A stretch of 63,344 bases of DNA from a virus (lineage: Duplodnaviria > Caudoviricetes): the IMG/VR virus record IMGVR_UViG_3300032328_000227, positions 1-63,344 of that record, one strand, 5' to 3'. The notes under the pieces are model-generated. The model was not told the origin of the DNA. It saw only the letters and a list, made by a program, of their open reading frames with translations, and ran no database searches. The first letter of the stretch is position 1, and each line of letters starts with the position of its first letter. Below, piece after piece: positions 157-62,589 of this stretch. The translations under genes were made by a program, and so were the position numbers.

Positions 157-157
157 G

Positions 158-364: not shown

Positions 365-378
365 TTTGTTTTCCTTAG

Positions 379-2067: not shown

Positions 2068-2068
2068 G

Positions 2069-2669: not shown

Positions 2670-2678
2670 AATTTTTCC

Positions 2679-19341: not shown

Positions 19342-19884
19342 TTATCTAAATGCTGGCCCACTAAGCCACATAGTTGCTGAATATCTATTACCTGTTATAA
19401 CTGGGGTTACTGTATGTAATAAAAATGAAGGGAATGCAATAACATCGCCTTTATTTAATTTTGGTTCTATTAGTTCACCTTTTATATCTTTAATCTGCAA
19501 TTGCCCCCCTGTATACTCATCCATATCATTCATGGCGCATACTATAGTTACTTTTCTATCTGTTGAGTGCCCTTCCAGAACAGTAACATCACTATGCCAT
19601 TTATAATGTTGTCCTGGCTTATATTCGGCATATTGCATAGTTTCTAGCTGATGTATGTTAAAATTCCATCCTGTTTTAATATTGGCTTCTAATCCTAATT
19701 GCTGTAGTACCCCATTAAACCAATACCATTCAGGTGCAAACCAAACCGTTGTATCGCGTATTGCTGTATTAACTAACTTCCCATCTCTATGTAATGCGGC
19801 TGCTTGGCTTTTATTTTCTATAAGTTCAGATGATACAATATTACACACGTCAGCAGGGATTTTTCCAATAAAATAGTTATCCAT
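19342..19884 (-). CDS. 2OG-Fe(II) oxygenase (prolyl-hydroxylase-like)
   Basis: WHSD...RK.T...GG.L...FPS..LH.VTPV..G.RYS. Confidence 0.9.
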   Translation of the reverse strand: MDNYFIGKIPADVCNIVSSELIENKSQAAALHRDGKLVNTAIRDTTVWFAPEWYWFNGVLQQLGLEANIKTGWNFNIHQLETMQYAEYKPGQHYKWHSDVTVLEGHSTDRKVTIVCAMNDMDEYTGGQLQIKDIKGELIEPKLNKGDVIAFPSFLLHTVTPVITGNRYSATMWLSGPAFR

Positions 19885-21437: not shown

Positions 21438-22005
21438 GTGGTTTTACTACCGCAACACCTAGCATATCATCTAGTGAGGCACTATCCAGAGGGGTTACAT
21501 CTACAATATCTGCGTTAAGTAGGCGTTTTATACGCTCTTTGATTGCATTTTCTAGGTCAGATGAGGTTTTATAGTTGACTGTGACCTCAGAACGCTCGGT
21601 AAATAGGGCAATATCGCTATGTTTACCCAATAACTCAATGGCTTTTAGCTCAAATCTAGCATCCCCACAGTTTGCAAGCTCTAATAACTTCTGTGTAAGC
21701 GCGGTTCGCACGTCATTCATATCGAATGCAAGCCGTTTACTGTATGCCTGGAGGAATCCTTTTGCACCATATGCCACCGCTTCGGTGCCTAGGGCCTTTT
21801 TATCGTGAGTTTTTAGGGACTGCTCAAGTAGTTTGGCGGATTTAACTGCTGTCTCGGTGTCCATTTCGGGTGGGCCGTTAAGCTGTTCTAGCAAATCTTG
21901 GGTGTTGGCAACGACTTTTAGCTCGTCAATGTACGTTTCCGTCTCATCATCTTGGATGTCGTAGGGGATTTTGTGGTCTTTTGTTGGTTCTACTTTAACA
22001 ATCAT
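21400..22005 (-). CDS. Probable terminase small subunit
   Basis: Immediately upstream of terL; LKAIELLGKH..LF motif. Confidence 0.7.
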   Translation of the reverse strand: MIVKVEPTKDHKIPYDIQDDETETYIDELKVVANTQDLLEQLNGPPEMDTETAVKSAKLLEQSLKTHDKKALGTEAVAYGAKGFLQAYSKRLAFDMNDVRTALTQKLLELANCGDARFELKAIELLGKHSDIALFTERSEVTVNYKTSSDLENAIKERIKRLLNADIVDVTPLDSASLDDMLGVAVVKPRETEEGDVVDEE

Positions 22006-22088
22006 ATTCCATGCTTCTTGTCAGCAAAGGGGTGATATCGCGAATATAGCATACAAATATAAAGTGTCAAAGTATATTTTTAAAAAAT

Positions 22089-22190
22089 ATACCCCCCGGG
22101 GGTATGTCAAATATATTTGATAGGGGGGTGTTTCCAAAATATATAGGGGTGGGGGGTGTTGTAACACAAACATGACCGGGGGGTGTTTTC
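22089..22190. repeat. G-tract repeats and palindromes (candidate pac/terminus region)
   Basis: ATACCCCCCGGGGGTAT 22089-22105; TCAAATATATTTGA 22107-22120; GGGGGGTGTT at 22123, 22151 and 22178. Confidence 0.6.
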
Positions 22191-22286
22191 AAAAATGCTC
22201 ATCTAATGTGCAAAACACAGATTAAGAAGGTAATGGGACTCCTCTTTGCCTGTTTGGGGGGTACGGCTACCGCCTAGCCCTGTATT

Positions 22287-22301
22287 CCTAACAATGTTAG
22301 G
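22287..22301. promoter_or_regulatory. Palindrome CCTAACAWTGTTAGG, perfect copy
   Basis: CCTAACAATGTTAGG, just upstream of promoter PE1. Confidence 0.8.
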
Positions 22302-22319
22302 CTATTGCGACCAAAGTTG

Positions 22320-22348
22320 TTGACTGTATTACAAAGTTCATCTACAAT
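22320..22348 (+). promoter_or_regulatory. sigma70-type early promoter PE1
   Basis: TTGACT-N17-TACAAT, preceded by GACCAAA. Confidence 0.8.
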
Positions 22349-22412
22349 GTACTTAAGTTGACGGCGGGCACATTGCATACCCAACGAGTACACTTTGAAA
22401 GGTTACATTATC

Positions 22413-22958
22413 ATGACTAAGAAAACAACAGCAACAGCAACAACCGAACCAACAGTATCATTGTTAGAAAGCGCGTTATCAACGGCGCGTAATGAGGTGG
22501 CGAATAGTTTGGTTCGCGGATACGGCGCAATGCGTGAATACTCAGTATTGCTTAACGGCGCGTTCGGTATTGATTGGTTTGATATTGAGCACTCAGACCA
22601 AAGCGATGAGGCAAAGCCTGTACTCGCGGAAAAGAAAGCATTTTATAAAGTATTGAACGAGGCGAACCACACGAACCCAAGCGTGGTTTGGAAAAGGGTT
22701 TGTAACTTTGGTAAGGTTGAGCGTTACGGCGAACCCGAAAAATCAGAGGGCGATACAGGCGAGGGCGAGGGCGAGGGCGATACAGGCGAGGCAACAAGCC
22801 CAGCACGTGGCGCAATGTTGCGCAATGTTGAGGAATTAACCACGCTTTGGAAATTCAATTCCAAACAGGAAAACCTTGACACCAAAATTGTTGAGGCGCA
22901 AAAACATATTACCCAAGCGTTGGCGTGTTTGGGTGTCAATGTGACAATGCTAGGATAA
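22413..22958 (+). CDS. First early gene, hypothetical, monocistronic
   Basis: ATG 22413 with GAAAGG RBS; acidic GEGEGEGDTGE linker; own promoter and terminator. Confidence 0.8.
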   Translation: MTKKTTATATTEPTVSLLESALSTARNEVANSLVRGYGAMREYSVLLNGAFGIDWFDIEHSDQSDEAKPVLAEKKAFYKVLNEANHTNPSVVWKRVCNFGKVERYGEPEKSEGDTGEGEGEGDTGEATSPARGAMLRNVEELTTLWKFNSKQENLDTKIVEAQKHITQALACLGVNVTMLG

Positions 22959-22974
22959 TCCCCCTCACCAAACC

Positions 22975-22997
22975 AAACCCGCTTCGGCGGGTTTTTT
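22975..22997 (+). terminator. Intrinsic terminator
   Basis: AAACCCGC-TTCG-GCGGGTTT-TTT. Confidence 0.9.
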
Positions 22998-23001
22998 ATT
23001 G

Positions 23002-23016
23002 CCTAACATTGTTAGG
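23002..23016. promoter_or_regulatory. Palindrome, perfect copy
   Basis: GCCTAACATTGTTAGGC, right after the terminator. Confidence 0.8.
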
Positions 23017-23031
23017 CTTTTCTCATTTTGG

Positions 23032-23127
23032 ATTTTGCCAAAATGATAGTTCTTACAGACGCGAGGGGATTTTGTTTAAGGCGTTTCATCATTTTGCCAA
23101 AATGATAGTTTTCACAGACGCGAGGGG
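23032..23127. repeat. Two 37-bp direct repeats
   Basis: ATTTTGCCAAAATGATAGTTyTyACAGACGCGAGGGG at 23032 and 23091 (35/37 identical). Confidence 0.85.
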
Positions 23128-23129
23128 CT

Positions 23130-23530
23130 TTTTTGTATTGTAAGACTTTTATTTTGTATTGTAAGAAAACTGAAAAAATCTTACGTAACATAATCAATGA
23201 CTTAGCTTGTATTGTAAGAAAACCTGTTTTTGAAATCTTACACATTAAATCAATGACTTAACGAATTTTCAATGGGTTTGCGGGCTATTGTAAGAAAACT
23301 TATAATTTTGAAAGCGCATAAAATTATTAGCACGTAATACGAGCAATACGGCAAGAAAAAGAACGCTACATAGATATACTCTTTTTTCTCTCTTACATTC
23401 TTACATTACACTTAAAAACTTAATCTTAACCTAGAGCCACGCGGTTTTATATTGTAAGAACTAATGTAAGAAAACCAAAATAAAATTCTTACAATACACT
23501 TTTTCCTTACAACGTATTACAACGTAAGAT
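23130..23530. repeat. AT-rich iteron-like array (TGTAAGA / TCTTAC), candidate origin
   Basis: Many TATTGTAAGA copies with inverted TCTTAC(A) copies; AATCAATGACTTA twice; no credible ORF. Confidence 0.55.
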
Positions 23531-23534
23531 TATA

Positions 23535-23676
23535 TTTAGTCACTTACATTGTATTACACGACCAAAACCCCTTGTAGTTTATTTTTTTCTTTCTTTCTAC
23601 ACTATTAGTTTAGTTTTACGCTAAAAAATAAACTCGCAATCTTTAGTCACTTACATTGTATTACACGACCAAAACC
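23535..23676. repeat. Two exact 35-bp direct repeats (duplicated promoter upstream region)
   Basis: TTTAGTCACTTACATTGTATTACACGACCAAAACC at 23535 and 23642. Confidence 0.9.
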
Positions 23677-23678
23677 AC

Positions 23679-23707
23679 TTGCATTTATTCTAACATTGTA
23701 ATACAAT
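23679..23707 (+). promoter_or_regulatory. sigma70-type early promoter PE2
   Basis: TTGCAT-N17-TACAAT, preceded by GACCAAAA. Confidence 0.75.
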
Positions 23708-23768
23708 AGAACCATAGTATGAAATCAAGCAAGCAACATACTATAAAACAAAACGTAACACTAACCCG

Positions 23769-23783
23769 CCTAACAATGTTAGG
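23769..23783. promoter_or_regulatory. Palindrome, perfect copy
   Basis: GCCTAACAATGTTAGGC, in the 5' UTR of ORF 23808. Confidence 0.8.
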
Positions 23784-23807
23784 CAACATACGAAAGGTAA
23801 AAATATC

Positions 23808-24143
23808 ATGAGTGCAACAACATTAAGCAATGCAAGAAAAGAAGTAAATGGGCGTAGACAATTTTTTGTACGCAATCCACAGACACGGAACGGCTCAGTA
23901 TTTAGTGAAGCAAGAGAAAATATGTACGTGGTTTATTCATACGGCTATCACTTCCCAATGTATGTGTATGACTATGCAATCGGTAAATGGATAGGCAACA
24001 ACGATAAGTATTCAGTTACGACAACAAGGCAACAAAGTAAGACACGCCCCGATGATGTTAGTTTTTGGATGGGAACGCAAGAGATGAAAGACATGATACG
24101 CAAGGGCGGGTTCGTAGAATACAAACTAAGAGAGGTGGAATAA
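23808..24143 (+). CDS. Early hypothetical protein
   Basis: YVVYSYG.HFP...KYS.TT.RQ motif; GAAAGG RBS. Confidence 0.8.
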   Translation: MSATTLSNARKEVNGRRQFFVRNPQTRNGSVFSEARENMYVVYSYGYHFPMYVYDYAIGKWIGNNDKYSVTTTRQQSKTRPDDVSFWMGTQEMKDMIRKGGFVEYKLREVE

Positions 24144-24145
24144 TC

Positions 24146-24256
24146 ATGAACGCTGATAAATGGGATGCGCTAATAGCGTGGGTATGTGCAATTGGTTTGT
24201 TTGTTTATTTTATTTTTGTTGTATGTGGAGGATTGAGCAATGAATACATCTATTGA
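24146..24256 (+). CDS. Small membrane protein
   Basis: MNADKWDALIAWVCAIGLFVYFIFVVC; single hydrophobic segment. Confidence 0.55.
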   Translation: MNADKWDALIAWVCAIGLFVYFIFVVCGGLSNEYIY

Positions 24257-24419
24257 ACGTGATGAGTACGACCTATGGGCAGAGAGTAGCGAGGAAGCTA
24301 CACGCAAGGCGTTAGAGTGCAAGAACCTAACAATGTTAGTCAACCTTGATAAGTGGATAGAGGATGCGTTTAACTTTATTGATACAGAGATGCAAGACAT
24401 GGAGGTACAGGATGAATAA
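24240..24419 (+). CDS. Small acidic hypothetical protein (59 aa, not in ORF track)
   Basis: MNTSIERDEYDLW...EVQDE*; GGAGG RBS. Confidence 0.6.
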   Translation: MNTSIERDEYDLWAESSEEATRKALECKNLTMLVNLDKWIEDAFNFIDTEMQDMEVQDE

Positions 24420-24567
24420 GAACGAGGTGATGTTAGACGATGTTATTAGTGATGCAGATAATGAGCTGATTAACGACATCAAGAAAGCATTGTACGTACT
24501 GATGCTAGGTGACAATCCAAATCAAGAAGCAATTGAGTTATTAAAAAAAGGGTTAAGAGATGAGTGA
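24412..24567 (+). CDS. Hypothetical protein
   Basis: MNKNEV start with GGAGG RBS. Confidence 0.6.
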   Translation: MNKNEVMLDDVISDADNELINDIKKALYVLMLGDNPNQEAIELLKKGLRDE

Positions 24568-24814
24568 AGCAAACAACAAGACAATTCATAAGAGCGTGAC
24601 ATTCAATGGTGAGTATCTCGCGTTTACTAACAAGACTGTATTCATGGTGCAGATAGGCAAAGACCGAAGCAGTTACAAAACCAAGTGGACTTTTACAGGT
24701 GACTTTGCGAACGCCCTATTCTATTACAAGAGCCTAAACATTGGGCGTGGCTATAAGAAGCGACTTTATGCGCCTTCACTAAACAAGGCGTTACTTGCTA
24801 GGAGTATGAGCTAA
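24560..24814 (+). CDS. Hypothetical protein
   Basis: Coupled ORF in the early operon. Confidence 0.7.
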   Translation: MSEANNKTIHKSVTFNGEYLAFTNKTVFMVQIGKDRSSYKTKWTFTGDFANALFYYKSLNIGRGYKKRLYAPSLNKALLARSMS

Positions 24815-24815
24815 C

Positions 24816-25103
24816 ATGGCAGAGATTAAGCGAAAGCGAAAAGCAACATTAGCCCCAGAACCTAAAATGCAAGTGGTACAGGTACAACCTAGCGTAAAGC
24901 AACGGATACTCATTGCGTGGATGAACTATGCAAGCGCAATGGCGTTAGTGCCTAGCCAAAAGAAATACAAAGAAGCGCAGTTGGCTTTCGTAGCTAACCT
25001 TGCTGAAAAGATGGGTGCACAATTCCCGCAAGAGGTATTGGCTTGCGCTATCGCTAAGAAAGACATAGCTAAGTTACTAAGGGGCGGTGATGAAAACAAA
25101 TAA
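24816..25103 (+). CDS. Hypothetical protein
   Basis: Coupled ORF with AGGAG RBS. Confidence 0.65.
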   Translation: MAEIKRKRKATLAPEPKMQVVQVQPSVKQRILIAWMNYASAMALVPSQKKYKEAQLAFVANLAEKMGAQFPQEVLACAIAKKDIAKLLRGGDENK

Positions 25104-25311
25104 GCCTAACATTGTTAGGGTAGAACGTGATGGGAAAGCGATGTTTGGGGGCAACAGGCATTTTTACTATGTAACGTTTGACAGACCGACAGATGATGAT
25201 TTTGTAATAGTAAGAAAAGACCGAAGCTATACACACATACTTGCTGATGATGAACTTAGTGCATGGGCAACAACGCAGAGAATGTTGGATGTGCAATATG
25301 GCAAAGATTGA
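25087..25311 (+). CDS. Hypothetical protein (paralog-like to next gene)
   Basis: FYYV...ILADDELSAW; contains a perfect palindrome at 25105-25119. Confidence 0.6.
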   Translation: MMKTNKPNIVRVERDGKAMFGGNRHFYYVTFDRPTDDDFVIVRKDRSYTHILADDELSAWATTQRMLDVQYGKD

Positions 25312-25483
25312 AAAGATATGGCGCAGAAGTAGCACTTCATTTTATGTAATGTTAGACCAAGAGATATGGGATAGCTTTGCAAAAACTGAAAGGCAGACAT
25401 ATGCAATATTCGCAAAGGATGAAGTAGAAGCATACAACCAAGTGATGAAAGGAATATGGCATGAGCAAAGCAGAACGCGGTAG
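25298..25483 (+). CDS. Hypothetical protein
   Basis: FYV...IFAKDEVEAY. Confidence 0.6.
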   Translation: MAKIEKIWRRSSTSFYVMLDQEIWDSFAKTERQTYAIFAKDEVEAYNQVMKGIWHEQSRTR

Positions 25484-25592
25484 GGTATTTATTAAATGGA
25501 TTAAGGCATACATTGAGTGCTTATCAGAGGGCAGGGCGATGGAGTTATTAACAGTAAGACACAGAGCAAGACAATTAAAACTTTTTCATTAA
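25461..25592 (+). CDS. Small basic hypothetical protein (43 aa, not in ORF track)
   Basis: MSKAERGRVF...KLFH*; AAGGA RBS. Confidence 0.45.
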   Translation: MSKAERGRVFIKWIKAYIECLSEGRAMELLTVRHRARQLKLFH

Positions 25593-25602
25593 GGAAAATA
25601 TC

Positions 25603-26538
25603 ATGCCATATGGACACAGTAGAAATTCGGGTATCAATAAGATTAACAATTATGCTGAAGCACTAAAGCAATGGGAGGAAACTAAACCTATTCGCAGACG
25701 GGCAACCGATGATAGACCGCTAGGGCATAGACGCAATACGTGGTACATGATTAAAAAGCGCGATGCTGATGATGCTATTGAGTGCATTATGTACGCACAA
25801 CCTGTTGTTACCTTTTATAAAGATGGGCGGGTAGAGGTTAAGAATTATTCATATAACACTACTTCAACGGCAAACTTTATATGGGATGTGCTACGCAGAG
25901 AGGTGAACGCATATATCTTTGACCATAGCTTAATCATTGGCATAGGTGGCGTAGACCAACGACTTAGGCGTAGCGAGAGTTTATTTATTAAGCGCGGGGA
26001 TGATGGAAACTATCACTTTTTAGATAGCAAGCCCGAAGTCACGCATACAATCAACCGCGAAAACACAAAAGCAATCCGCGCAAGGCATAGCGACTTCATG
26101 CAATACATGGATGGTATGGCTAAGTTACGTGGGGCAGAGGCTTTTACTCGCGAGGAACTGACTAACCAATTAGGCAGAGAACTATACAACGTGGACTTTG
26201 GGCGTATTAGGCACTTTAATCACTTACACGATGATGGAAAAGAATTTATAAATAACATAGCAAAATTTAAGGAATACATATCCGACAAAAGCGAGGATAG
26301 ATTTGATGGGTATTACAAAGCAATGTTGATAATGGTGCATAGCTTTGGCAAGTACGATTGGAATACAAGCGGGTTTATTATCCGCGCGGATAGTTTAATA
26401 CGTGATTTTGATAGGGTGCTTATGGGCTTATACCGCGATGAGTATTTTAATGCGAACGTAACGGATAATGGCAGAGCCAAGCGCGATACCTATGGTGCGT
26501 ATTTTAGTGGTTTGTGGGATTTTTATAATAAAGCCTAA
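25603..26538 (+). CDS. Early hypothetical protein (311 aa)
   Basis: Long ORF with AAGGA RBS; KPIR.R...RPLG.RR motif. Confidence 0.8.
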   Translation: MPYGHSRNSGINKINNYAEALKQWEETKPIRRRATDDRPLGHRRNTWYMIKKRDADDAIECIMYAQPVVTFYKDGRVEVKNYSYNTTSTANFIWDVLRREVNAYIFDHSLIIGIGGVDQRLRRSESLFIKRGDDGNYHFLDSKPEVTHTINRENTKAIRARHSDFMQYMDGMAKLRGAEAFTREELTNQLGRELYNVDFGRIRHFNHLHDDGKEFINNIAKFKEYISDKSEDRFDGYYKAMLIMVHSFGKYDWNTSGFIIRADSLIRDFDRVLMGLYRDEYFNANVTDNGRAKRDTYGAYFSGLWDFYNKA

Positions 26539-26596
26539 CATTGTTAGGCAATGACCAAAGCAGTTGACTTATTTATAACATTGTAATACAATGTTA
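26534..26596 (+). promoter_or_regulatory. Perfect palindrome plus early promoter PE3
   Basis: CCTAACATTGTTAGG 26534-48; GACCAAA; TTGACT(26564)-N17-TACAAT(26587); the -10 lies inside palindrome TAACATTGTA-A-TACAATGTTA. Confidence 0.8.
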
Positions 26597-26643
26597 AACA
26601 GTAGCAAGCAGTATCATTTTAACTTTACTTTAAGGAACGTATC

Positions 26644-27711
26644 ATGGCTGAATTAAATTTTGGTAAGACAGTAACACTAGCGCAAGCGGCACAATTGATT
26701 TTAGCAACACCGATGAATAGATACCTGTTGCAAGGTGAAGCGGGTATAGGCAAATCATCATTACTTAAAACATTATCGGCACAATTGCCAAATCATGAAG
26801 TGGCATACCTTGATGTGCCTAACATGGACTTAGGTGACATTGCAATGCCTGTTATCAATCATGAGAATAAGACAACGGCATACTATCCGAACTCACGCTT
26901 TAAGGTACATACAGGCAACCCTGTTATAACAATGTTAGATGAGTTTACCAAAGGTGCTGAACCTGTAAAAAATATGTTGCACCCCTTACTTGAGGTAGCT
27001 AACCCGCGCTTGGGTGATATATCAGTCAACCCTAAGAGCATTATCTTTTTAACAGGTAACTTAGGAAGTGATGGACTAGGTGACAACCTTAAAGCGCATA
27101 GTAGAAATCGTATCATCCCGCTAACAGTACGCAAGCCGAACGCGGAGGAGTGGATTGAGTGGGCAATGAATAATGGTATCGCGCCCGAAGTGTTAGCTTG
27201 GGTACGACAATTCCCTCATGCGTTAGCGAGTTACCTAGAGGGTGACCAACAAGAAAATCCGTATATCTACAATCCAAAAAAGGTACAGACCGCGTTCGTA
27301 TCCCCACGTAGCTTAGAGCGTGTAAGTGAGATTGTTAAGGTACGCAGTAAGATTGATATGGACACATTGATATGTGCTATGAGTGGCGCAATCGGTGAGA
27401 GTGCATCACGTGATATGCAAGCGTACATTGACTATTCAGACCAATTAGAGCCGTTCGAGAATGTGGTTAAGAACCCTAAAACCGCGCGTGTACCCGATAG
27501 CGCAGGGGCTAGTGCAATTATGATTTTTGGTGCAATCGCTAGTGTTACTAAAGAAAGCATTGGTAACTTTATGGACTACCTAGAACGCTTTGAACCCGAA
27601 TGGCAAGCGTGTTTTGCAATCAACATTGCCAAGAACCCGACCAAGCAATCAATTGCATTTAGCAGTAGCAAATTTGCTGATTGGGTACAAAAGAACGAGG
27701 ACTTACTTTAA
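26644..27711 (+). CDS. MoxR-like AAA+ ATPase
   Basis: GEAGIGKS Walker A, MLDEF Walker B, TGN sensor-1, SPRS sensor-2. Confidence 0.9.
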   Translation: MAELNFGKTVTLAQAAQLILATPMNRYLLQGEAGIGKSSLLKTLSAQLPNHEVAYLDVPNMDLGDIAMPVINHENKTTAYYPNSRFKVHTGNPVITMLDEFTKGAEPVKNMLHPLLEVANPRLGDISVNPKSIIFLTGNLGSDGLGDNLKAHSRNRIIPLTVRKPNAEEWIEWAMNNGIAPEVLAWVRQFPHALASYLEGDQQENPYIYNPKKVQTAFVSPRSLERVSEIVKVRSKIDMDTLICAMSGAIGESASRDMQAYIDYSDQLEPFENVVKNPKTARVPDSAGASAIMIFGAIASVTKESIGNFMDYLERFEPEWQACFAINIAKNPTKQSIAFSSSKFADWVQKNEDLL

Positions 27712-27723
27712 GGAGAACTAACA

Positions 27724-28965
27724 ATGTTAGCTGAACAAACAGAAATAGTAGTACGTGACAAAGAAGAACGTAGGCTTAGTAAGATTAAGATTAGCATTAT
27801 GCGTAACCCGAAGTTTGCATTGTGGAGTGGCTTGATGACAGTGGGTAAGACCGCTATTACAGACAATCCGAATGTACCAACGGCATCTACCAATGGGCGT
27901 GATGAGCTTTATGGGCGCAAGTTTGTGCAGGGTATGGATGATAAAGAGTTTACGTTCGTAGTATTACATGAAACTTTGCATAAAGCATACAGGCATATCA
28001 CTACATGGCGTAAGTTAGCCGAGCAAGACAGACAGCTATGCAACCTAGCGAATGACTTTGTGATTAACTTGCAATTGAAAGATTTAGACTCGAACGAGAG
28101 TTTCATGGCAATGCCAACGAAAGATGGTAAGGCTCTTGGATATGTTGATGAGAAGTATCGCGGGATGAATACCAAACAAGTGTTTGACTTACTTAAAGAG
28201 GACAAAGAGAACCGCGAGGGTATCTTTGCTGATAGCGATGATGAGCCTAACAGTATGGATGACCATGATTGGGATGGTGGTAAAAATCTTACTGAGGCAG
28301 AAAAGACCGCACTTGCTAAAGAGATTGACCAAGCTATACGACAGGGCATCATTGCACATAACAAGGTAGCAGGTAGTGGGCGGGGTGGGCTAGACCGCGC
28401 ATTGGAGGAGATGGTAGAACCCGAAGTTGATTGGCGCGAGGTACTACGTGAGTTTGTTAAAGCTACGTGCAATGCTAAAGATGCAAGCAGTTGGCGTAGG
28501 GTAAATCGCCGTTACTTATCAACCGATACGTATATGCCTAGCATGGTAGGTGAGAGTGTAGGGCATTTAGTTATCGGCATTGATACGAGTGGCTCTATTC
28601 AAGGTAGGGAACTATCAGAATTTTTGGCAGAGGTGCAAGCTATCGCAACCGAAGTGCATCCCGAAAAAGTAGATTTGTTTTATTGGGATAGTGAAGTTGC
28701 AGGGCATGAGGAATATGACATGGCTACATTGCCTAACATTGTTAGCTCAACAAAGCCAAAAGGTGGTGGTGGTACAAACCCGACTTGTATGATTGACTAT
28801 ATGCAAGAGAAAGGTATTAAGCCCGAAGCAATCATTATCTTAACTGACGGCTATATTGACAGATGGGGGGACAATTGGAACGCGCCTGTATTATGGACTA
28901 TCGTGCGTAACAAGAAAACATATGCACCAATAGGTAAAACAATTCATGTGAGAGAGGAATACTAA
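27724..28965 (+). CDS. Metallopeptidase-like + vWA domain protein (DUF2201-type)
   Basis: HETLH (HExxH), DTSGS MIDAS, GGGGT, LTDG. Confidence 0.9.
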   Translation: MLAEQTEIVVRDKEERRLSKIKISIMRNPKFALWSGLMTVGKTAITDNPNVPTASTNGRDELYGRKFVQGMDDKEFTFVVLHETLHKAYRHITTWRKLAEQDRQLCNLANDFVINLQLKDLDSNESFMAMPTKDGKALGYVDEKYRGMNTKQVFDLLKEDKENREGIFADSDDEPNSMDDHDWDGGKNLTEAEKTALAKEIDQAIRQGIIAHNKVAGSGRGGLDRALEEMVEPEVDWREVLREFVKATCNAKDASSWRRVNRRYLSTDTYMPSMVGESVGHLVIGIDTSGSIQGRELSEFLAEVQAIATEVHPEKVDLFYWDSEVAGHEEYDMATLPNIVSSTKPKGGGGTNPTCMIDYMQEKGIKPEAIIILTDGYIDRWGDNWNAPVLWTIVRNKKTYAPIGKTIHVREEY

Positions 28966-28966
28966 G

Positions 28967-29146
28967 ATGGCGTACTTTAAGGTTTTAATTACAGAAAAGT
29001 TTGTGTACGAAATATTGGTTAGAGCTAATGATGAAGCCGATGCAATCAAACAAGCAAATACCTTTGATGGCTCATGGGGTGAGCCAATACACACTTCAAC
29101 AGATACGTATGATGTAACAGAATTGGAGATTAAAAATGTTAGCTAA
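28967..29146 (+). CDS. Small hypothetical protein (59 aa, not in ORF track)
   Basis: MAYFKVLITE...VRANDEADAI...*; GAGGA RBS. Confidence 0.6.
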   Translation: MAYFKVLITEKFVYEILVRANDEADAIKQANTFDGSWGEPIHTSTDTYDVTELEIKNVS

Positions 29147-30038
29147 TATCAAATTACATAGCGAGGAAATAGAGTTACGCGATGGCAGTAGGGTAACGTT
29201 ACAAGTGCAGGGTAAACCTAGCGCAATGATGTTTGTAGAGGAACTTGCCAAGAGGCATCCAACGTGGACATTCACACCAAACAGCGTTAGCCGTGACTAT
29301 AAGAACGTAGATTATAACGGCAGAACATATAGTGAAGTAGATTCACTATGGGCATACGAGTTTACTGTAACGCAAGGTAAAGATATATTAGGTAGGCTAG
29401 GTGCAGAGTATTGGGGTGGGAATAGGTTTTTTGTAACTAATGACCGCATCATGAAAGAGCGACAACGTGGTAGCGTTACGCGCACAAAAGACTTAAAGAA
29501 AGCTCTTAAGCTAGTATCAAAAATGTTTTTCCCTAAGACTGACAAGGAATTAGTTAAAGAAATAACTATTAGGGGTAAAGATATATTAGGTAATTATAGG
29601 TACAGAAAGCAACAAAACTTTCATGACATATGGCGCAACATGAATAAAGGTATGTTACTTTATATCAGAGAAAACCTTGCCGAGTTTAGGGCGTTTACGG
29701 CGGGTGCAGGAATGAGTATTGATGGACTTGAAAACTTTGAAACCGCATGGCAAGAAAAAGACAAATCAAGTGAACTAGAGAAAGCATACGCAGAGGGTAG
29801 AGCTAGTATGGTGACATTGATGGGCGATGTGTTTTACTTTACATTCAAAGATACACCCGCAGTTTCATTCCATCGTGATGAGGTAACGCCCGAAATCAAA
29901 ACTAAAGTGGGTATGCTTAAATTAGTAGCCAATGGTGAAGCAATAGATAACGTGGGTTTCAAATGCGAGGAGGATGTGTTTGTTATCAATATGCTACCTA
30001 ACATTGTTAGGCAAGGAGGACAGAGTGAAGCTAGTTAA
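29136..30038 (+). CDS. Hypothetical protein (300 aa)
   Basis: Long ORF, GGAG RBS; contains a perfect palindrome at 29997-30011. Confidence 0.8.
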   Translation: MLANIKLHSEEIELRDGSRVTLQVQGKPSAMMFVEELAKRHPTWTFTPNSVSRDYKNVDYNGRTYSEVDSLWAYEFTVTQGKDILGRLGAEYWGGNRFFVTNDRIMKERQRGSVTRTKDLKKALKLVSKMFFPKTDKELVKEITIRGKDILGNYRYRKQQNFHDIWRNMNKGMLLYIRENLAEFRAFTAGAGMSIDGLENFETAWQEKDKSSELEKAYAEGRASMVTLMGDVFYFTFKDTPAVSFHRDEVTPEIKTKVGMLKLVANGEAIDNVGFKCEEDVFVINMLPNIVRQGGQSEAS

Positions 30039-30198
30039 GAAAGAAAAAATAATGACACCACCTAAAACACCATCTGTTTTTGATAAAGATTTTAAGTATG
30101 TAAAAGCCGAGCATACTGATGTTGCGCGAACATGGCGCAAACATGGGTGGACACCACCATCGGAAAATCGTAATAAAACTAAGGAGAAAGGATTGTGA
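30025..30198 (+). CDS. Hypothetical protein
   Basis: GTG start after GGAGG; F.YV.A..TDV..TWRK.GW.PP motif. Confidence 0.6.
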   Translation: MKLVKKEKIMTPPKTPSVFDKDFKYVKAEHTDVARTWRKHGWTPPSENRNKTKEKGL

Positions 30199-30377
30199 GA
30201 GGTAAAAAAGCAAACCATGTATCACTAAAACTAATTAGCTTGCGACTTGATAAGGATGTGTATGACTACCTAGTTAAACACTACCCGACTAAAATCCAAG
30301 CGACAATCAGAGCTGTATTAAAAGATTTTACAAACCTAAATGGAGAACGAAATGACAACGACACAACCAACATTTAA
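30195..30377 (+). CDS. Ribbon-helix-helix (BrnA-like) DNA-binding protein
   Basis: ISLRLDKDVYDYL...IRAVL pattern; AGGAG RBS. Confidence 0.65.
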   Translation: MRGKKANHVSLKLISLRLDKDVYDYLVKHYPTKIQATIRAVLKDFTNLNGERNDNDTTNI

Positions 30378-30807
30378 GAAACAAAAGATTAACAGAACGG
30401 CGCGAGTAAGACAGATGTTAGCTACCCGCCCCGACTTATCGCCTAAGACAATTGCTGAACGCGCTAAGGTAAACGTAACAATAGTATATGAGCAACGCAA
30501 ACTAATGCGTGACGCGCAAAGTACAGGTGCTAAGTTACCCGAAGTAGCAACACGCATTGCAGTAGGTAAATCAACAGAAGCTAAAGCAGAAGTTAAAGCA
30601 GATGTTAAGCCACAAGTCAAGGAAGAAATTATGCCTAAGTATTCGGAAAAATACACAAAGGCAGTTGATTTAATAGCCGACTATAAGCTAAACTTCAATC
30701 TAGGTAGCGCAGTAGCTCATATCTTTAGAGCCAATAGCGACAACAAACGTGCAGACATTAAAGCCGCAATATGGTATTTAACTAATGAGTTGCTGACTAC
30801 CGACTAA
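30352..30807 (+). CDS. HTH + DUF3310-like protein
   Basis: N-terminal LSPKTIAERAKV..TIVY HTH; C-terminal NFNLG.A...RA...DIKAAIWYL. Confidence 0.6.
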   Translation: MTTTQPTFKKQKINRTARVRQMLATRPDLSPKTIAERAKVNVTIVYEQRKLMRDAQSTGAKLPEVATRIAVGKSTEAKAEVKADVKPQVKEEIMPKYSEKYTKAVDLIADYKLNFNLGSAVAHIFRANSDNKRADIKAAIWYLTNELLTTD

Positions 30808-30815
30808 TAAAATTA

Positions 30816-30960
30816 AAGGGGTTACGATACAACCCGATTTGCTAGTAGCCTTGTAGATGCGAAAACAAATCGGGGTTAGCTAATTACCCCAAACGTTTTC
30901 AATTAGCTAATTCCTTTCACGCCTTGAGGTGGGCAAGTAATCTACATATCCCACCACCCT
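30816..30960 (+). ncRNA. Candidate structured RNA with three stems and a loop-loop pseudoknot
   Basis: Stems CCCGATTTG/CAAATCGGG, TTAGCTAATT/AATTAGCTAA and GGTGGG/CCCACC; complementary loops TGTAGAT/ATCTACA. Confidence 0.55.
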
Positions 30961-30991
30961 CCCCCCTCTCAAAAATAAATCTATTCTCCCC

Positions 30992-31019
30992 TTGACTTTG
31001 TCCAACCATGTGTTATCAT
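30992..31019 (+). promoter_or_regulatory. Promoter (class 2), probably driving a leaderless mRNA
   Basis: TTGACT-N16-TATCAT with TG extension; ATG at 31025. Confidence 0.55.
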
Positions 31020-31024
31020 GGGCT

Positions 31025-31345
31025 ATGGCACTTACCCCTGAAAAGAAAGTTAAAGACCGAGCCGTTAAGCTACTTAAGGCTCATGGCATATATTACTTTT
31101 TCCCCGCAACACATGGGTATGGGCGTAGTGGTGTGCCTGACATTATATGTTGCGCCAACGGATTATTCTTAGGCATAGAGTGTAAAGCAGGTGACAACAA
31201 GCCAACCGCCTTGCAAGAAAAAGAGATGCAGAGCATCCGAGATGCAGGTGGCAGGACAATCGTAATCAACGAAAATAACCTAACATTGTTAGGTGAGCTA
31301 ATAGAGGAATTATCAAATGAACAAAGGCGTACAAATATTACTTGA
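31025..31345 (+). CDS. VRR-NUC nuclease
   Basis: GVPDII.C..G.F.GIECKA...PT.LQ; contains a 17-bp palindrome at 31278-31294. Confidence 0.88.
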   Translation: MALTPEKKVKDRAVKLLKAHGIYYFFPATHGYGRSGVPDIICCANGLFLGIECKAGDNKPTALQEKEMQSIRDAGGRTIVINENNLTLLGELIEELSNEQRRTNIT

Positions 31346-31778
31346 ACGGATGGAAAGTAATCCCGATGAGTTTTATGTGAATAGCAAGACAGCCGTAAAG
31401 TGGCGCGACATAGTAGAGCAAATCTATCAACGTGTTGACGCACACTTCAAAAACCCCAATGCTAAACCGCATTGGGAACACCAATTACATTTTTTAAGCA
31501 TGGCAGAAATAATAGAGCTGCGCGATAAAATGCAACAGATACGTGCAGAAGAGTTTACCCAAGATGTTATGGCTAGACTTCTTGCTGATGCAGATGATGG
31601 GAACTATCATGCTTCCGCCCAATACCAAAGCAATACGCCCAAAACAATTTCGGTTCCTAATTCGCAGATAGACATAATGCGTGGATACTTAGAGCAACAA
31701 TCTAAAACAGAAAAACAAGAGTTATATGATGCTTTAACTAAACTTGAAACTAGACGTGCGTTTGGTAAAGGCAAATGA
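31317..31778 (+). CDS. Hypothetical protein
   Basis: MN.GV.ILL.RMESNP.EF N-terminus; GAGGA RBS. Confidence 0.75.
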   Translation: MNKGVQILLERMESNPDEFYVNSKTAVKWRDIVEQIYQRVDAHFKNPNAKPHWEHQLHFLSMAEIIELRDKMQQIRAEEFTQDVMARLLADADDGNYHASAQYQSNTPKTISVPNSQIDIMRGYLEQQSKTEKQELYDALTKLETRRAFGKGK

Positions 31779-40442: not shown

Positions 40443-41356
40443 TGAGTAATTTAACAATTTTTAAAAATGATATCCCTGCTGAGTTCCGTGCTCAAGGCGT
40501 TAGTGAATTAACTAAATCTTTGGCTGGTGCAGGTCGTTCAACCAATCGCCGTATTGCAGTTAAAAACGGTGCATTTCGTAAGTTAGTTAACGGTGAAGAA
40601 GTAGGTAAACTAAAAGGAGAACTTAACGTAGTTGTTATTAATGCCCTGCCATCAGTATCTCGTACATACTATGCAGAAGAGTATGACCCAAACGGTACTC
40701 CTACATTACCTGATTGCTGGTCTAATTTAGGCGACAAACCGGAAGCTAACTCAGCTAACCCACAAGCATCTAATTGCCAATCATGCCCACAAAACGTAGC
40801 TGGTTCAGGTGGTGGTACTCGCCGTGCTTGTGCATATCAACGCCGTATTGCAGTTGTACTAGCAGGTATTGATTCTAATGCTCCGATTGATTTAAATGGT
40901 GATGTATACCAAATGAATCTTTCATCTACTACCATCTTCGGTAAGGGTGAAGGTAATGTGCATCCGTTTGAAAGCTATTCTCGTTTCTTAGCGGCAAATA
41001 ATGAAAGTATTGATGGCATTGTAACTACTATTTCTATTGATGAAGATGCAGACAATACTAAATTACTTTTCTCACCAGCTCGTCATTTAACAAATGAAGA
41101 ACAAGAAGTAGTTTATTCAGCAGCAGCTACTCCTGAAGCTAAAAATGCAGTACGTCTAACAGTTGCACAACAAGACGGCGTTAAAAAATTACCGGCAGCG
41201 GCTAAAGAAGAGTTTGCACCTACGACTCCTAAAGCAGCGCCAGTAGTTGAAGACCCAATTGAAGAGCCAGTTAAACGTGCGTCAACAAAACCCGCAGCTC
41301 CAGTTGCTAAAGCTAATTTAGCGGATGTAGTAAACGCATGGAGCGATGACGAATAA
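40442..41356 (+). CDS. Probable single-stranded DNA-binding protein
   Basis: R.YY...P.CWS...C.SCP.N..GS...RAC; acidic C-terminus WSDDE. Confidence 0.65.
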   Translation: MSNLTIFKNDIPAEFRAQGVSELTKSLAGAGRSTNRRIAVKNGAFRKLVNGEEVGKLKGELNVVVINALPSVSRTYYAEEYDPNGTPTLPDCWSNLGDKPEANSANPQASNCQSCPQNVAGSGGGTRRACAYQRRIAVVLAGIDSNAPIDLNGDVYQMNLSSTTIFGKGEGNVHPFESYSRFLAANNESIDGIVTTISIDEDADNTKLLFSPARHLTNEEQEVVYSAAATPEAKNAVRLTVAQQDGVKKLPAAAKEEFAPTTPKAAPVVEDPIEEPVKRASTKPAAPVAKANLADVVNAWSDDE

Positions 41357-41598
41357 TGAGCTACGGATATAGTGCAAGAATTATAGGACTCAATGCTGTT
41401 GCCAGCAAAGAACGCTTAGGTGTTGCTTTAGGTAGAGTTTGTATCGCACTAGACATCCCTGTTAGCGCTATTGCTCGACAAGCAGGTGTAAGTAAACAAA
41501 CTATTTATAACTGGTTCATTGGAAGTTACGACCCACGAGCTGGTTATAAAGCAGTTGTTGAACGCATCATCCAAGATTTAGAAACCAAAAAACAGTAA
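41356..41598 (+). CDS. Cro-like HTH protein
   Basis: IARQAGVSKQTIYNWF. Confidence 0.85.
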   Translation: MSYGYSARIIGLNAVASKERLGVALGRVCIALDIPVSAIARQAGVSKQTIYNWFIGSYDPRAGYKAVVERIIQDLETKKQ

Positions 41599-44670: not shown

Positions 44671-44683
44671 GCTATATTTCGTT

Positions 44684-53383: not shown

Positions 53384-53386
53384 ATA

Positions 53387-59749: not shown

Positions 59750-59788
59750 AATTTAAACCTTTATTAATTTAGTTGTATATTATCATTA

Positions 59789-62580: not shown

Positions 62581-62589
62581 AGCTACTTT

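What the first reader, a model, noticed from the sequence alone, without database searches (positions are those of the whole stretch)
22287..31294. Dispersed 15-bp palindrome CCTAACAWTGTTAGG marks the 9-kb early region, even inside genes
Seen: seven perfect copies (22287, 23002, 23769, 25105, 26534, 29997, 31279). Near copies lie at 24326 and 28732 (14/15), 27717 (13/15, over the vWA start codon), 26925 and ~22940. Spacing is about one per kb, and I saw none in the other ~54 kb. Copies inside CDSs are read in two frames (PNIVR/PNIVS versus LTLLG/LTMLV), so selection acts on the DNA, not the protein. Only some copies sit at promoters; others follow a terminator or lie mid-gene, which is atypical of a simple repressor operator. 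Inference: a dimeric protein coats the segment next to the putative packaging terminus, possibly the first DNA to enter. It could silence the early region as a domain, protect or condense entering DNA, act as a centromere-like array, or titrate a host factor. Candidate binders: the RHH protein (30195), the Cro-like protein (41356), the early gene 22413 (bracketed by two copies), or an injected virion protein.
Basis: partly seen in the sequence, partly recalled or inferred. Interest (0 to 1): 0.88.

Follow-up and report, generated by a model that had tools for sequence, protein, structure and literature searches.

The report
Lineage-specific palindrome array marking phage early genes
A 13-15 bp DNA palindrome is repeated about once per gene across the early region of this uncultured freshwater phage, and its relatives carry the same or their own palindrome at the same places, which looks like a set of binding sites for a still unidentified phage regulator of early genes.

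Summary
The window, a complete 63.3-kb phage record, has 7 perfect 15-mers. Its 13-bp core CTAACAWTGTTAG occurs 10 times, plus one variant at 26925. All lie in 22287-31293, and shuffles expect none.

The array is conserved. 105 of 120 IMG/VR stretches with the motif are relatives. In complete relatives it is again confined to the block between the small terminase gene and the DNA polymerase gene. Other sub-lineages carry different inverted repeats in the same block, with at least 10 kinds seen.

Selection acts on double-stranded DNA:
- There is no flank conservation and no consistent strand bias.
- Variants are mirror-symmetric (C->A 39, G->T 36) and do not preserve pairing.
- Four consecutive codons are invariant at synonymous sites inside the ATPase gene.

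Sites lie 24-73 bp downstream of strong sigma70-like early promoters, at gene junctions, and upstream of the ATPase gene in 17 of 17 genomes.

Best reading (0.5): an operator or roadblock array for a phage-encoded symmetric DNA-binding protein that is inherited with the early module, resembling mycobacteriophage stoperators. The binder is unresolved. The Cro-like HTH (41356), the RHH (30195) and the small terminase subunit (TerS) all fail the covariation test. The bracketed first early gene (22413) tracks the palindrome class but shows no known DNA-binding fold.

The parts
22287..22301 (.). Site 1, a perfect 15-mer. It lies in non-coding DNA, with its centre about 61 bp upstream of the predicted start of promoter P22320.
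23002..23016 (.). Site 2, a perfect 15-mer directly after the terminator-like hairpin at 22975-22994 that ends the first early gene.
23769..23783 (.). Site 3, a perfect 15-mer in the leader of gene 23808-24143, 24 nt before its ATG. It lies about +62 from an inferred promoter at 23679-23707.
   Evidence: promoter read by eye, not in the scan
24326..24340 (.). Site 4, with a perfect core and one outer mismatch, inside the small ORF 24240-24419 (read as LTMLV).
25105..25119 (.). Site 5, a perfect 15-mer 1 nt after the stop of 24816-25103. It lies within the first codons of ORF 25087-25311 (read as PNIVR).
26534..26548 (.). Site 6, a perfect 15-mer whose TAA is the stop codon of 25603-26538. Its centre is about 58 bp upstream of the predicted start of promoter P26564 and 103 bp before the ATPase start.
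26925..26939 (.). Probable variant site inside the ATPase gene. The core ATAACAATGTTAG carries one C->A change.
27717..27731 (.). Site 7, with a perfect core and both outer bases changed. The ATG of the vWA gene (27724) is the centre of the palindrome.
28732..28746 (.). Site 8, with a perfect core, inside the vWA gene at codon about 338 (read as PNIVS). 8 of 11 class-1 genomes, the window included, have a site at codons 320-364.
29997..30011 (.). Site 9, a perfect 15-mer at the 3' end of 29136-30038. The RBS AAGGAGG starts 1 nt after it and the next GTG start about 12 nt after it.
31279..31293 (.). Site 10, a perfect 15-mer at the 3' end of the nuclease gene, 23 nt before the ATG at 31317. It is the last site before the DNA polymerase. 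The same position is occupied in 5 of 11 class-1 genomes, the window included, and, by the other palindrome, in G005.
22320..22348 (+). Sigma70-like early promoter TTGACT-17-TACAAT.
26564..26592 (+). Sigma70-like promoter TTGACT-17-TACAAT before the ATPase gene.
30992..31019 (+). Sigma70-like promoter TTGACT-16-TATCAT (extended -10 TG) at the start of the nuclease and DNA polymerase block.
22413..22958 (+). First early gene (181 aa), bracketed by sites 1 and 2. It has two helical domains joined by an acidic Gly/Glu linker. It is a candidate binder by position and by class-tracking only.
25603..26538 (+). 311-aa protein of unknown function. It is one of four early-module families found in 8 of 8 genomes of 5 palindrome classes.
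26644..27711 (+). AAA+ ATPase (phrog_1297). A site lies 10-103 bp before its start in 17 of 17 genomes.
27724..28965 (+). 413-aa partner protein (phrog_1314). The name and an HExxH motif are my reading and were not tested by Pfam.
29136..30038 (+). 300-aa protein of unknown function, found in every early module compared.
30195..30377 (+). Small protein that looks RHH-like by eye and has no Pfam hit. It is rejected as the specificity determinant.
41356..41598 (+). Cro/CI-type HTH protein (80 aa) in the replication module. It is rejected as the specificity determinant.

Best explanation
The palindromes are binding sites on double-stranded DNA for a sequence-specific, two-fold symmetric (dimeric) phage protein. 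That protein is encoded in, and inherited together with, the early gene module. Host RNA polymerase starts at a few strong sigma70-type early promoters. A site sits in the transcribed leader about 45 bp downstream of these promoters and again at most gene junctions. When the binder accumulates, it would block elongating polymerase at many points, acting as roadblock operators like mycobacteriophage stoperators. This would shut the early region off as a unit, and it could do the same to an incoming genome of the same kind. Each sub-lineage has its own site, so site and binder appear to co-evolve.

Shown here: the sites exist, are confined to the early region, are conserved in position across lineages, are under selection at the DNA level, and are strand-symmetric.

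Inferred: that a protein binds them, that binding blocks transcription, and the timing. The binder is not identified.
For: Reality and restriction:
- 7 exact and 10 core copies lie in 14% of the genome, where shuffles expect none.
- In complete relatives the array is again confined to one block. G001 has 22 copies (up to 1 mismatch) in 57424-65223 plus 1-4078 and none elsewhere in its 65 kb.
- G004 to G008 carry 5 to 14 copies of another palindrome within blocks of 4-18 kb.

DNA-level, symmetric selection:
- No flank position in 228 unique contexts has information content above 0.25 bit, and the centre base is A 131 against T 97.
- Of 108 single-mismatch core variants, 92 are at the outermost core positions. 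C->A occurs 39 times and its mirror G->T 36 times. Changes compatible with a G.U pair number 1 on the sense strand and 5 on the antisense strand.
- In the ATPase gene, 142 columns have the same amino acid in 9 genomes and only 13 have the same codon. Four of those 13 are the consecutive codons TCT AAC ATT GTT of the site.

Tie to early transcription units:
- 57 strict sigma70-like promoters lie on the early strand and 0 on the other strand in class-1 loci. The nearest site centre lies at +30 to +79 in 38 of the 57.
- In 12 of 15 genomes of three palindrome classes, one or two of the one to four strict promoters found genome-wide have a site at +24 to +73.
- 95 of 498 unique copies have an RBS plus start codon 5-29 nt downstream on the early strand, against 6 on the reverse strand.
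- A site lies 10-103 bp before the ATPase start in 17 of 17 genomes of three classes.

Lineage-specific sites:
- At least 10 kinds of inverted repeat occupy the same block in terminase-related contigs.

Co-inheritance with the early module:
- The class-8 genomes G038 and G039 have a replication module as close to the window as distant class-1 genomes (DNA polymerase 65-66% identity). G038 also carries a comparably close small terminase (53%).
- Their ATPase and vWA proteins are only 36-38% identical, against 58-81% within class 1.

Precedent: passages of PMC6550527 read describe 20 to 30 repressor sites per genome, most not at promoters, which block elongation and have lineage-specific consensus sequences.
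Against: No binder has been identified.
- The only universal protein with a clear DNA-binding fold is the Cro-like HTH 41356. It has the same recognition helix (VSRQTIYNWF) in class 1 and class 8, whose palindromes differ.
- The RHH family has the same strand residues in classes 1, 7 and 8 and differing ones within class 1.
- The first early gene has no recognised DNA-binding fold and an acidic pI of 5.2. Its most HTH-like helix varies within class 1 although the site does not.

Half-site spacing varies within single genomes: G011 has spacer 1 four times and spacer 2 eight times, and G014 has spacer 0 fifteen times and spacer 1 twice. That is awkward for a rigid dimer.

Operators centred near +45 are an unusual place for a repressor.

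In the window itself the two strict promoters have their sites at -61 and -58, not downstream.

Promoters and transcription starts are predicted from consensus only. No transcript or binding data exist for this phage.
Confidence: 0.5

Rival explanations
1. The element works as a hairpin in early mRNA, or in the exposed non-template strand. It could be a leader and intercistronic stem-loop bound by a phage-specific RNA-binding protein or endoribonuclease. Such a protein could act as a translational operator, a processing or stabilising site, or a nut/boxB-like antitermination signal.
For: Sites lie in transcribed leaders at +24 to +73 from early promoters. They often lie 5-29 nt before an RBS and start codon. 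The spacer between arms varies from 0 to 2 nt within single genomes and up to 7 nt between classes, which a loop tolerates easily. From memory, lambdoid boxB hairpins are also phage-specific and lie just downstream of early promoters.
Against: Variation is not constrained by pairing. Of 108 single-mismatch variants, only 1 gives a G.U pair on the sense strand and 5 on the antisense strand. The dominant change C->A breaks a pair and occurs as often in its mirror form, 39 against 36. The arms are invariant in sequence while the would-be loop varies, which is the opposite of usual RNA hairpin recognition. The centre base shows no consistent sense-strand bias: A 131 against T 97 overall, and opposite biases in G004 and G007. 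Two window copies lie upstream of promoters. Rfam has no match in 21900-31900.
Confidence: 0.15
2. The repeats are recombination sites or microhomologies that shuffle early gene cassettes between co-infecting relatives. This would resemble the promoter-early stem-loop (PeSL) cassettes of T4-type phages or integron attC sites.
For: Sites sit at gene junctions. Early gene content and order differ between relatives: the 25603-like gene lies before the ATPase in the window and G001 but after the vWA gene in G003, L152 and L182. The first early gene is duplicated with its flanking sites in G001, G002 and several loci. BLASTN alignment ends are 1.4-1.7 times enriched within 20-50 bp of a site.
Against: The enrichment of alignment ends is weak and not sharp: 3.6% against 2.7% within 10 bp. 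Any element lying between genes would show the same. No tyrosine recombinase is present. Intragenic sites at fixed codons of conserved genes do not bound cassettes. Recombination alone does not explain why each lineage keeps one uniform sequence or why promoters are followed by a site.
Confidence: 0.1
3. The array binds a protein for a purpose other than transcription. Possibilities are protecting or compacting the first DNA to enter, a centromere-like partition array, loading of the replication machinery, or marking the DNA as self against a phage nuclease.
For: The dispersed symmetric sites, about one per 0.5-1 kb and confined to one block next to the terminase genes, resemble dispersed parS or centromere arrays (resemblance recalled). 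The block adjoins a repeat-rich non-coding region and three GGGGGGTGT repeats that may be packaging or origin signals.
Against: No ParA or ParB-like gene turned up in the Pfam or PHROG scans of the ORFs I submitted, which did not cover all ORFs. The fixed relation to promoters, RBSs and gene junctions is not expected for a structural array. The physical termini are unknown.
Confidence: 0.12
4. The sites bind or titrate a host regulator.
For: In one high-GC bacterial genome locus (L888), two copies of the same core flank a promoter between a TetR-family gene and its divergent neighbour. One Dinoroseobacter genome assembled from a metagenome (MAG) holds 4 copies. Cellular regulators can therefore plausibly use this sequence.
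Against: Closely related phages use at least 10 different palindromes, which fits a phage-encoded partner better than a host one. The genome scan gave mostly single, taxonomically scattered hits at about chance level, and none of the 120 loci resembles the phage. The host is unknown.
Confidence: 0.05
5. The palindromes are N4-type hairpin promoters read by a virion-borne RNA polymerase.
For: The 6-bp stem with a 3-nt loop, the early region and the giant virion protein gene recall N4 (resemblance recalled).
Against: The 2873-aa protein matches LPD39, GHKL ATPase and DarB-like families, not an RNA polymerase. Early genes have strong sigma70-type promoters. The sites have no conserved flanks or orientation.
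Confidence: 0.03

Closest known systems
Stoperators of Cluster A mycobacteriophages (L5 gp71 type). I read passages of PMC6550527 and saw only the search listing and abstract start of PMC9283540.
   Same: Both have many copies of one short site per genome. Most copies are not in promoters but in transcribed or intergenic DNA. Related lineages have distinct consensus sequences.
   Different: Stoperators are asymmetric, oriented with transcription, spread over the whole genome, and bound by a monomeric immunity repressor of temperate phages. Here the sites are palindromic with no orientation and are confined to the early block. The phage has no detectable integrase and the binder is unknown.
Conserved inverted repeats (CIRs) of Streptomyces phage phiC31, bound by its repressor. 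This is recalled; I found no paper on it in the library.
   Same: Both are a highly conserved inverted repeat in many copies in the early region, mostly between genes and near early promoters.
   Different: phiC31 is a temperate siphovirus with a known repressor gene. Lineage-specific diversification of the repeat across relatives is not something I can cite for it.
Lambdoid nut/boxB elements (recalled).
   Same: Both are phage-specific, 15-nt dyad elements shortly downstream of early promoters.
   Different: boxB acts as RNA, with a conserved loop and one or two copies per genome. Here there are 10-25 copies, the arms are invariant and the centre varies, and no pairing-driven variation is seen.
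Promoter-early stem-loop (PeSL) cassettes of T4-type phages (recalled).
   Same: Both are repeated elements flanking small, variable early genes in a plastic region.
   Different: PeSLs are longer and include a promoter and a terminator-like stem-loop, and they are proposed to act through homologous recombination. Here the repeat is only 13-15 bp and homology breakpoints are only weakly enriched near it.

Membership tests
Stoperator-type operator array (Cluster A mycobacteriophages) | Tens of copies of one short site per genome | tested here: met
   The window has 10-11 copies. Complete or near-complete relatives have 5 to about 25.
Stoperator-type operator array (Cluster A mycobacteriophages) | [quoted passage not shown] | tested here: not met
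   The site is a perfect palindrome. The centre base is A 131 against T 97, and mirror-image variants occur 39 against 36 times.
Stoperator-type operator array (Cluster A mycobacteriophages) | Sites spread through the whole genome | tested here: not met
   Sites are confined to the early block, 14% of the window, and to blocks of 4-18 kb in relatives.
Stoperator-type operator array (Cluster A mycobacteriophages) | Most sites not in promoters but within transcribed or intergenic DNA | tested here: met
   Sites lie at +24 to +73 from predicted promoters, at gene junctions and at fixed intragenic codons. Promoters are predicted only.
Stoperator-type operator array (Cluster A mycobacteriophages) | Lineage-specific consensus that co-varies with a cognate repressor | tested here: inconclusive
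   At least 10 site classes were found. No protein with a DNA-binding fold co-varies with them: the HTH and RHH proteins fail.
Stoperator-type operator array (Cluster A mycobacteriophages) | Binder blocks transcription elongation and confers immunity | not testable with these tools
   This needs binding and transcription assays. No RNA run was listed for this phage.
boxB/nut-type RNA hairpin | Stem kept by pairing (compensatory or wobble changes), with the loop carrying the specificity | tested here: not met
   Among 108 variants, wobble-compatible changes number 1 on the sense strand and 5 on the antisense strand. The arms are invariant and the centre varies.
N4-type hairpin promoter | Genome encodes a virion RNA polymerase, and sites have conserved flanks and a fixed orientation | tested here: not met
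   No RNA polymerase family was found in the 2873-aa or 1202-aa proteins. No flank is conserved.
Integron attC array | A tyrosine recombinase IntI, and long imperfect attC sites at cassette ends | tested here: not met
   PF00589 is absent from the genome. The sites are 13-15 bp perfect palindromes. The likeness of GCCTAAC/GTTAGGC to the attC core motifs (recalled) is not shared by the other classes.
Cro/CI (XRE) helix-turn-helix proteins, for ORF 41356-41598 only | Five-helix lambda-repressor-like fold with an HTH | tested here: met
   The AlphaFold2 model has pLDDT 89. The top Foldseek hits are the P22 c2 repressor, 434 Cro and other XRE proteins, with probability up to 0.99, TM 0.6 and weak E-values near 0.4. 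Pfam gives a weak TetR_N hit over the HTH.

The most novel reading that the evidence does not exclude
The array and a fast-evolving early gene product form a self-recognition system in a virulent phage group. Each lineage would silence the whole early block of genomes that carry its own palindrome, both for early shut-off and to exclude superinfecting kin. An arms race among co-occurring freshwater phages would then have produced at least 10 mutually orthogonal 'immunity' classes without lysogeny. The position-conserved first early gene, which is bracketed by sites and belongs to unrelated families in different classes, would be a new kind of DNA-binding specificity factor. Its flexible acidic linker would explain the tolerance of 0-2 bp spacer changes.
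Probability: 0.2. Interest if true: 0.85.

Novelty: new variant of a known kind. Interest (0 to 1): 0.66.

Why it matters
Early-gene control in uncultured aquatic phages is essentially unknown. This group offers a clear, testable regulatory code. It consists of one short palindrome per lineage, placed at conserved positions: after early promoters, before the ATPase gene, and at fixed codons. There are at least ten natural specificity variants.

If a cognate binder is found, the system would give a set of orthogonal operator-repressor pairs. It would also provide a way to sort metagenomic phage contigs into regulatory or exclusion groups. And it would be a case of stoperator-like silencing outside temperate actinophages.

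The synonymous-site constraint inside conserved genes also shows that such arrays shape protein-coding sequence.

Tried and rejected
N4-like reading. I first suspected hairpin promoters for a virion RNA polymerase. I dropped this when the 2873-aa ORF matched LPD39, GHKL-ATPase, WLM and DarB-like families and the early genes showed sigma70-type promoters.

First early gene as binder.
- The AlphaFold2 model (pLDDT 81) is all-helical, and Foldseek found no match at E <= 0.001 in the PDB or BFVD libraries.
- Its C-terminal domain looks RHH-like by eye (RSLTLRLVEELTTLYK). A profile search of PDB sequences and Pfam scans of 36 members gave nothing relevant.
- hhalign found no homology between the first-gene families of class 1, classes 5/6 and class 8 (probability below 1%).
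- Pfam and PHROG scans gave no hits.

Cro-like HTH as binder. A position in the recognition helix at first seemed to track three classes: N in class 1, S/A in class 5 and L/M in class 6. Classes 7 and 8 then showed a class-1-like helix with different palindromes. The homodimer prediction gave no verdict, so it counts neither way.

Small terminase as binder. It is 53% identical in the class-8 genome G038, which falls within the class-1 range of 40-66%.

Cassette junctions. BLASTN alignment ends are only 1.4-1.7 times enriched near sites.

Protein Atlas look-ups for 25603 and 29136 gave only 'hypothetical protein' clusters or no usable hit.

Sequencing runs. No RNA holder was listed. I did not use read laying, because contigs cannot show RNA ends.

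Literature. Searches for palindromic repeats in phage early regions, for HTVC023P or OM43 phages and for phiC31 conserved inverted repeats found no description of this array. PMC9599517 has no occurrence of palindrom, inverted repeat, promoter or operator. Supplements were not seen.

Two pattern scans were unproductive. TTCCG-N7-CGGATTTGT returned only the known contig with more than one copy. TCTYAACTGGTTGAGA gave 103 single-copy stretches of unknown meaning.

Full report
**1. What the window is**

The window is a complete virus record of 63,344 bp with direct terminal repeats as IMG/VR classes them.
- Genes on the minus strand (1-22173 and 44762-63344) are structural and packaging genes. They include the large terminase 19884-21437 (phrog_38) and a 2873-aa polyvalent protein with LPD39, GHKL-ATPase and WLM matches.
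- Genes on the plus strand (22395-44670) are an early block followed by a replication block. The replication block holds DNA polymerase A, an exonuclease, a helicase and a DUF927 primase-helicase.
- The closest named phages, by terminase (54-57% identity), are Pelagibacter phages HTVC027P and HTVC023P, phage 023Pt_psg01 and Phage DSL-LC04. For the two records I fetched (HTVC027P and 023Pt_psg01), only structural genes are clearly shared.
- No tyrosine integrase is present.
- Runs that hold parts of the sequence are labelled freshwater or lake metagenomes. The shares were small, I did not lay them on the sequence, and I draw no habitat claim from them.

**2.

- There are seven exact 15-mers and three more at up to 2 mismatches, all between 22287 and 31293. 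Shuffles expect 0.00 and 0.14 respectively.
- The three imperfect copies differ only at the outermost bases, so the 13-bp core CTAACAWTGTTAG is perfect ten times.
- The copy at 26925 carries the commonest core variant and is probably an eleventh site. The copy at 22940 is not convincing.
- Nothing outside the block comes closer than 3 mismatches.

**3. The array is a family trait**

54 of the 120 hold two or more copies.
- 105 of the 120 share proteins with the window at roughly 25-90% identity.
- In the complete relative G001, all 22 copies (up to 1 mismatch) lie in one block of about 12 kb, between the small terminase gene and the DNA polymerase gene. G002 and G003 behave alike.
- HTVC027P and 023Pt_psg01 have none. 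They also lack the window's early and replication genes.

**4. Each sub-lineage has its own inverted repeat in the same block**

Among 80 contigs with a terminase 66-80% identical to the window's, and in follow-up scans, the region upstream of the terminase genes carries these repeats:
- CCTAACA-W-TGTTAGG, the window's own kind.
- The same arms with no spacer: L175 and G014, the latter with 15 of 17 copies.
- The same arms with a 2-nt spacer: L198 and G011, the latter with 8 of 12 copies.
- The same arms with any centre base: G009 and L186.
- TACTGTC-W-GACAGTA: G004 to G008, with 5 to 14 copies.
- TTCATAC-W-GTATGAA: G026 and G027.
- AACCTACA-N3-TGTAGGTT: G033 and G036.
- AGGGTTAC-N5-GTAACCCT: G038 and G039.
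- TAACAYTTCCG-N7-CGGATTTGTTA: L154.
- GGACAWTTCCG-N7-CGGATTTGTCC: L168.
- TATCTYAAC-TG-GTTGAGATA: L183.

In every complete genome the array is confined to one block.

**5. The selection is on duplex DNA**

- In 228 unique contexts no flank position reaches 0.25 bit, and the centre base is A 131 against T 97 relative to the direction of the early genes.
- Single genomes can be skewed. G004 has A 11 and T 1. G007 has A 9 and T 0 on the contig strand, which is the opposite sense relative to its early genes. So there is no common strand rule.
- Of 108 single-mismatch core variants, 92 hit the outermost core positions. C->A occurs 39 times and the mirror G->T 36 times. Only 1 (sense strand) and 5 (antisense strand) would keep a G.U pair.
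- This pattern fits a base preference read symmetrically on both half-sites, not maintenance of a stem.
- Inside the ATPase gene, 9 of 11 class-1 genomes carry a site at codon about 229. In those nine, 142 alignment columns have an identical amino acid but only 13 an identical codon. Four of the 13 are the consecutive site codons TCT AAC ATT GTT. The Arg codon that follows is the rare AGG, while flanking Arg codons are CGN.
- The window has lost this site: its codons read AGT GAG ATT GTT AAG.

**6. Where the sites sit**

- In class-1 loci, strict sigma70-like promoters (TTGACN, 16-18 nt, TANAAT) occur 57 times on the early strand and never on the other strand. The nearest site centre is at +30 to +79 from the predicted start in 38 of the 57.
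- In 12 of 15 genomes of three palindrome classes, one or two of the one to four strict promoters found genome-wide are followed by a site at +24 to +73.
- The window is an exception. Its two strict promoters have the site about 60 bp upstream. A weaker promoter that I read at 23679-23707 has site 3 at about +62.
- Of 498 unique core copies, 95 have an RBS plus start codon 5-29 nt downstream on the early strand, with a peak at 10-14 nt (36 copies). The reverse strand has 6.
- Positions are conserved across classes. A site lies 10-103 bp before the ATPase start in 17 of 17 genomes. The vWA start codon lies inside a site in 6 of 11 class-1 genomes. A site lies at vWA codons 320-364 in 8 of 11. 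A site lies at the 3' end of the nuclease gene in 5 of 11 class-1 genomes, and in G005 with the other palindrome.

**7. Who binds? I tested five leads**

(a) Cro-like HTH 41356-41598.
- It is found in 18 of 24 records searched.
- Its model (pLDDT 89) resembles P22 c2 and 434 Cro.
- Its recognition helix is S[KR][QAMT]T[IV]YNWF in class 1, SR[VMT][TA]VY[SA]WF in class 5 and SRQAVY[LM]WF in class 6. Compared from memory with the 434 repressor helix, the class-specific positions would be base-reading ones. That comparison is recalled and untested.
- However, the helix is SRQAVYNWF in class 7 and SRQTIYNWF in class 8, the latter identical to class 1, although the palindromes differ.
- I therefore reject it as the specificity determinant.

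(b) RHH-like 30195.
- I judge the relatives in G001, G009, G033 and G038 to belong to its family by eye and by synteny. An HMM built from them did not retrieve the window's own protein.
- These relatives have the strand residues H-N-R in G009 (class 1), G033 (class 7) and G038 (class 8), but other residues in G001 and the window.
- Rejected.

(c) Small terminase 21400-22005.
- It is 27-33% identical in classes 5 and 6, but 53% in the class-8 genome G038, inside the class-1 range of 40-66%.
- Three GGGGGGTGT repeats at 22123, 22151 and 22178 are a more likely target for it.
- Rejected.

(d) What does track the class is the early module.
- In class 8 the replication genes are as close to the window as in distant class-1 genomes. 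The ATPase and vWA proteins are only 36-38% identical, against 58-81% within class 1.
- Four early families occur in 8 of 8 genomes of five classes: the 25603-like protein, the ATPase, the vWA protein and the 29136-like protein.
- None has a known DNA-binding domain.

(e) The first early gene.
- In every class the first sizeable ORF (about 160-212 aa) is bracketed by sites.
- Its family changes with class: A1 in the CTAACA classes (55 unique members, often two paralogues per genome), fam9 in classes 5 and 6, and fam46 in class 8. No homology between these families is detectable.
- The A1 protein has two helical domains joined by a low-confidence acidic linker. A flexible tether of this kind could explain tolerance of 0-2 bp spacer changes.
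- Against it, no DNA-binding fold or family is recognised.
- A variable first gene could equally be an anti-defence gene that is simply the first to be transcribed.

**8. Reading**

- The sites are operators on duplex DNA for a symmetric, phage-encoded binder that travels with the early module.
- They sit in leaders and at gene junctions, they are absent from late genes, and lineages have diversified their sequence. Together this points to control of early transcription units by blocking elongation. The nearest known analogue is the stoperator system, as described in the passages of PMC6550527 read.
- I put this reading at 0.5, because neither a binder nor any expression data is in hand.
- The RNA-hairpin, recombination, structural and host-factor readings remain possible at lower odds, for the reasons given under the rival explanations.

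**9. Limits**

- Promoters, terminators, starts and gene calls are predictions from consensus patterns and ORFs.
- Loci were oriented by BLAST votes.
- Many metagenomic contigs are fragments.
- The classes are not phylogenetically independent, so covariation arguments are weak except where modules have been exchanged, as between class 8 and class 1.
- I saw no paper supplements.

Noticed in passing
window 22086-22194: The intergenic DNA between the small terminase gene and the early genes holds three exact GGGGGGTGT repeats at 22123, 22151 and 22178, spaced 27-28 bp apart. It also holds the palindrome ATACCCCCGGGGGGTAT at 22089-22105. These may be a packaging (pac) signal or another protein-binding array.
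   Followed up: partly
window 23020-23800: This is about 780 bp of non-coding DNA inside the array. It carries a second repeat family (TATTGTAAGAAAAC and its inverse, about 8-10 copies), a 47-nt direct repeat (23032 and 23091) and a 48-nt direct repeat (23532 and 23639). The 48-nt repeat ends in promoter-like TTGTAG/TTGCAT ... TACAAT sequences. The region could be an origin, a set of promoters or small RNA genes. Rfam has no match.
   Followed up: partly
window 22320-22348, 26564-26592, 23560-23707: The early promoters share an upstream GACCAAAG or GACCAAAACC box between the palindrome and the -35 element.
   Followed up: no
window 44762-53383 (-): A 2873-aa polyvalent protein matches LPD39, GHKL-type ATPase and weakly WLM peptidase. 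Its C-terminal 800 aa resemble DarB-like PHROGs. It is probably an injected anti-defence protein.
   Followed up: partly
window 38291-38575 (+): A 94-aa basic HNH-motif ORF overlaps the 5' part of the annotated helicase ORF in another frame. It is conserved in all relatives at 38-87% identity, so the helicase probably starts later.
   Followed up: no
G001 60328-60531 and its counterparts in G004, G006, G009, G026, G033 and G038: A small four-cysteine protein looks TraR/DksA-like by eye. It occurs in 7 of 8 early modules compared and is absent from the window.
   Followed up: no
L888 1807-1874: In a bacterial contig with 69% GC, two copies of the same 13-bp core lie 55 bp apart. They flank a promoter-like TTGAC between a TetR-family gene and a divergent MDMPI_N gene. 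This looks like an ordinary TetR operator pair that happens to use the phage's palindrome.
   Followed up: partly
L798, L828, L835 (one Dinoroseobacter genome assembled from a metagenome): Four exact copies of the 15-mer occur in GC-rich intergenic DNA of one genome. One copy sits inside a 31-bp perfect palindrome beside an Lrp/AsnC-family gene. That is far more than chance for a single genome, and I have no explanation for it.
   Followed up: partly
G014 44058-47198: A second inverted-repeat family, GGCACC-N3-GGTGCC, occurs 12-13 times within 3 kb outside the early block. It may be a repetitive coding region.
   Followed up: no
IMG/VR stretches L911-L990 and beyond: The 16-mer TCTYAACTGGTTGAGA occurs exactly once in each of 103 viral contigs, far above chance for 15 specified bases. 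It is probably part of a conserved gene or RNA unrelated to this finding.
   Followed up: no
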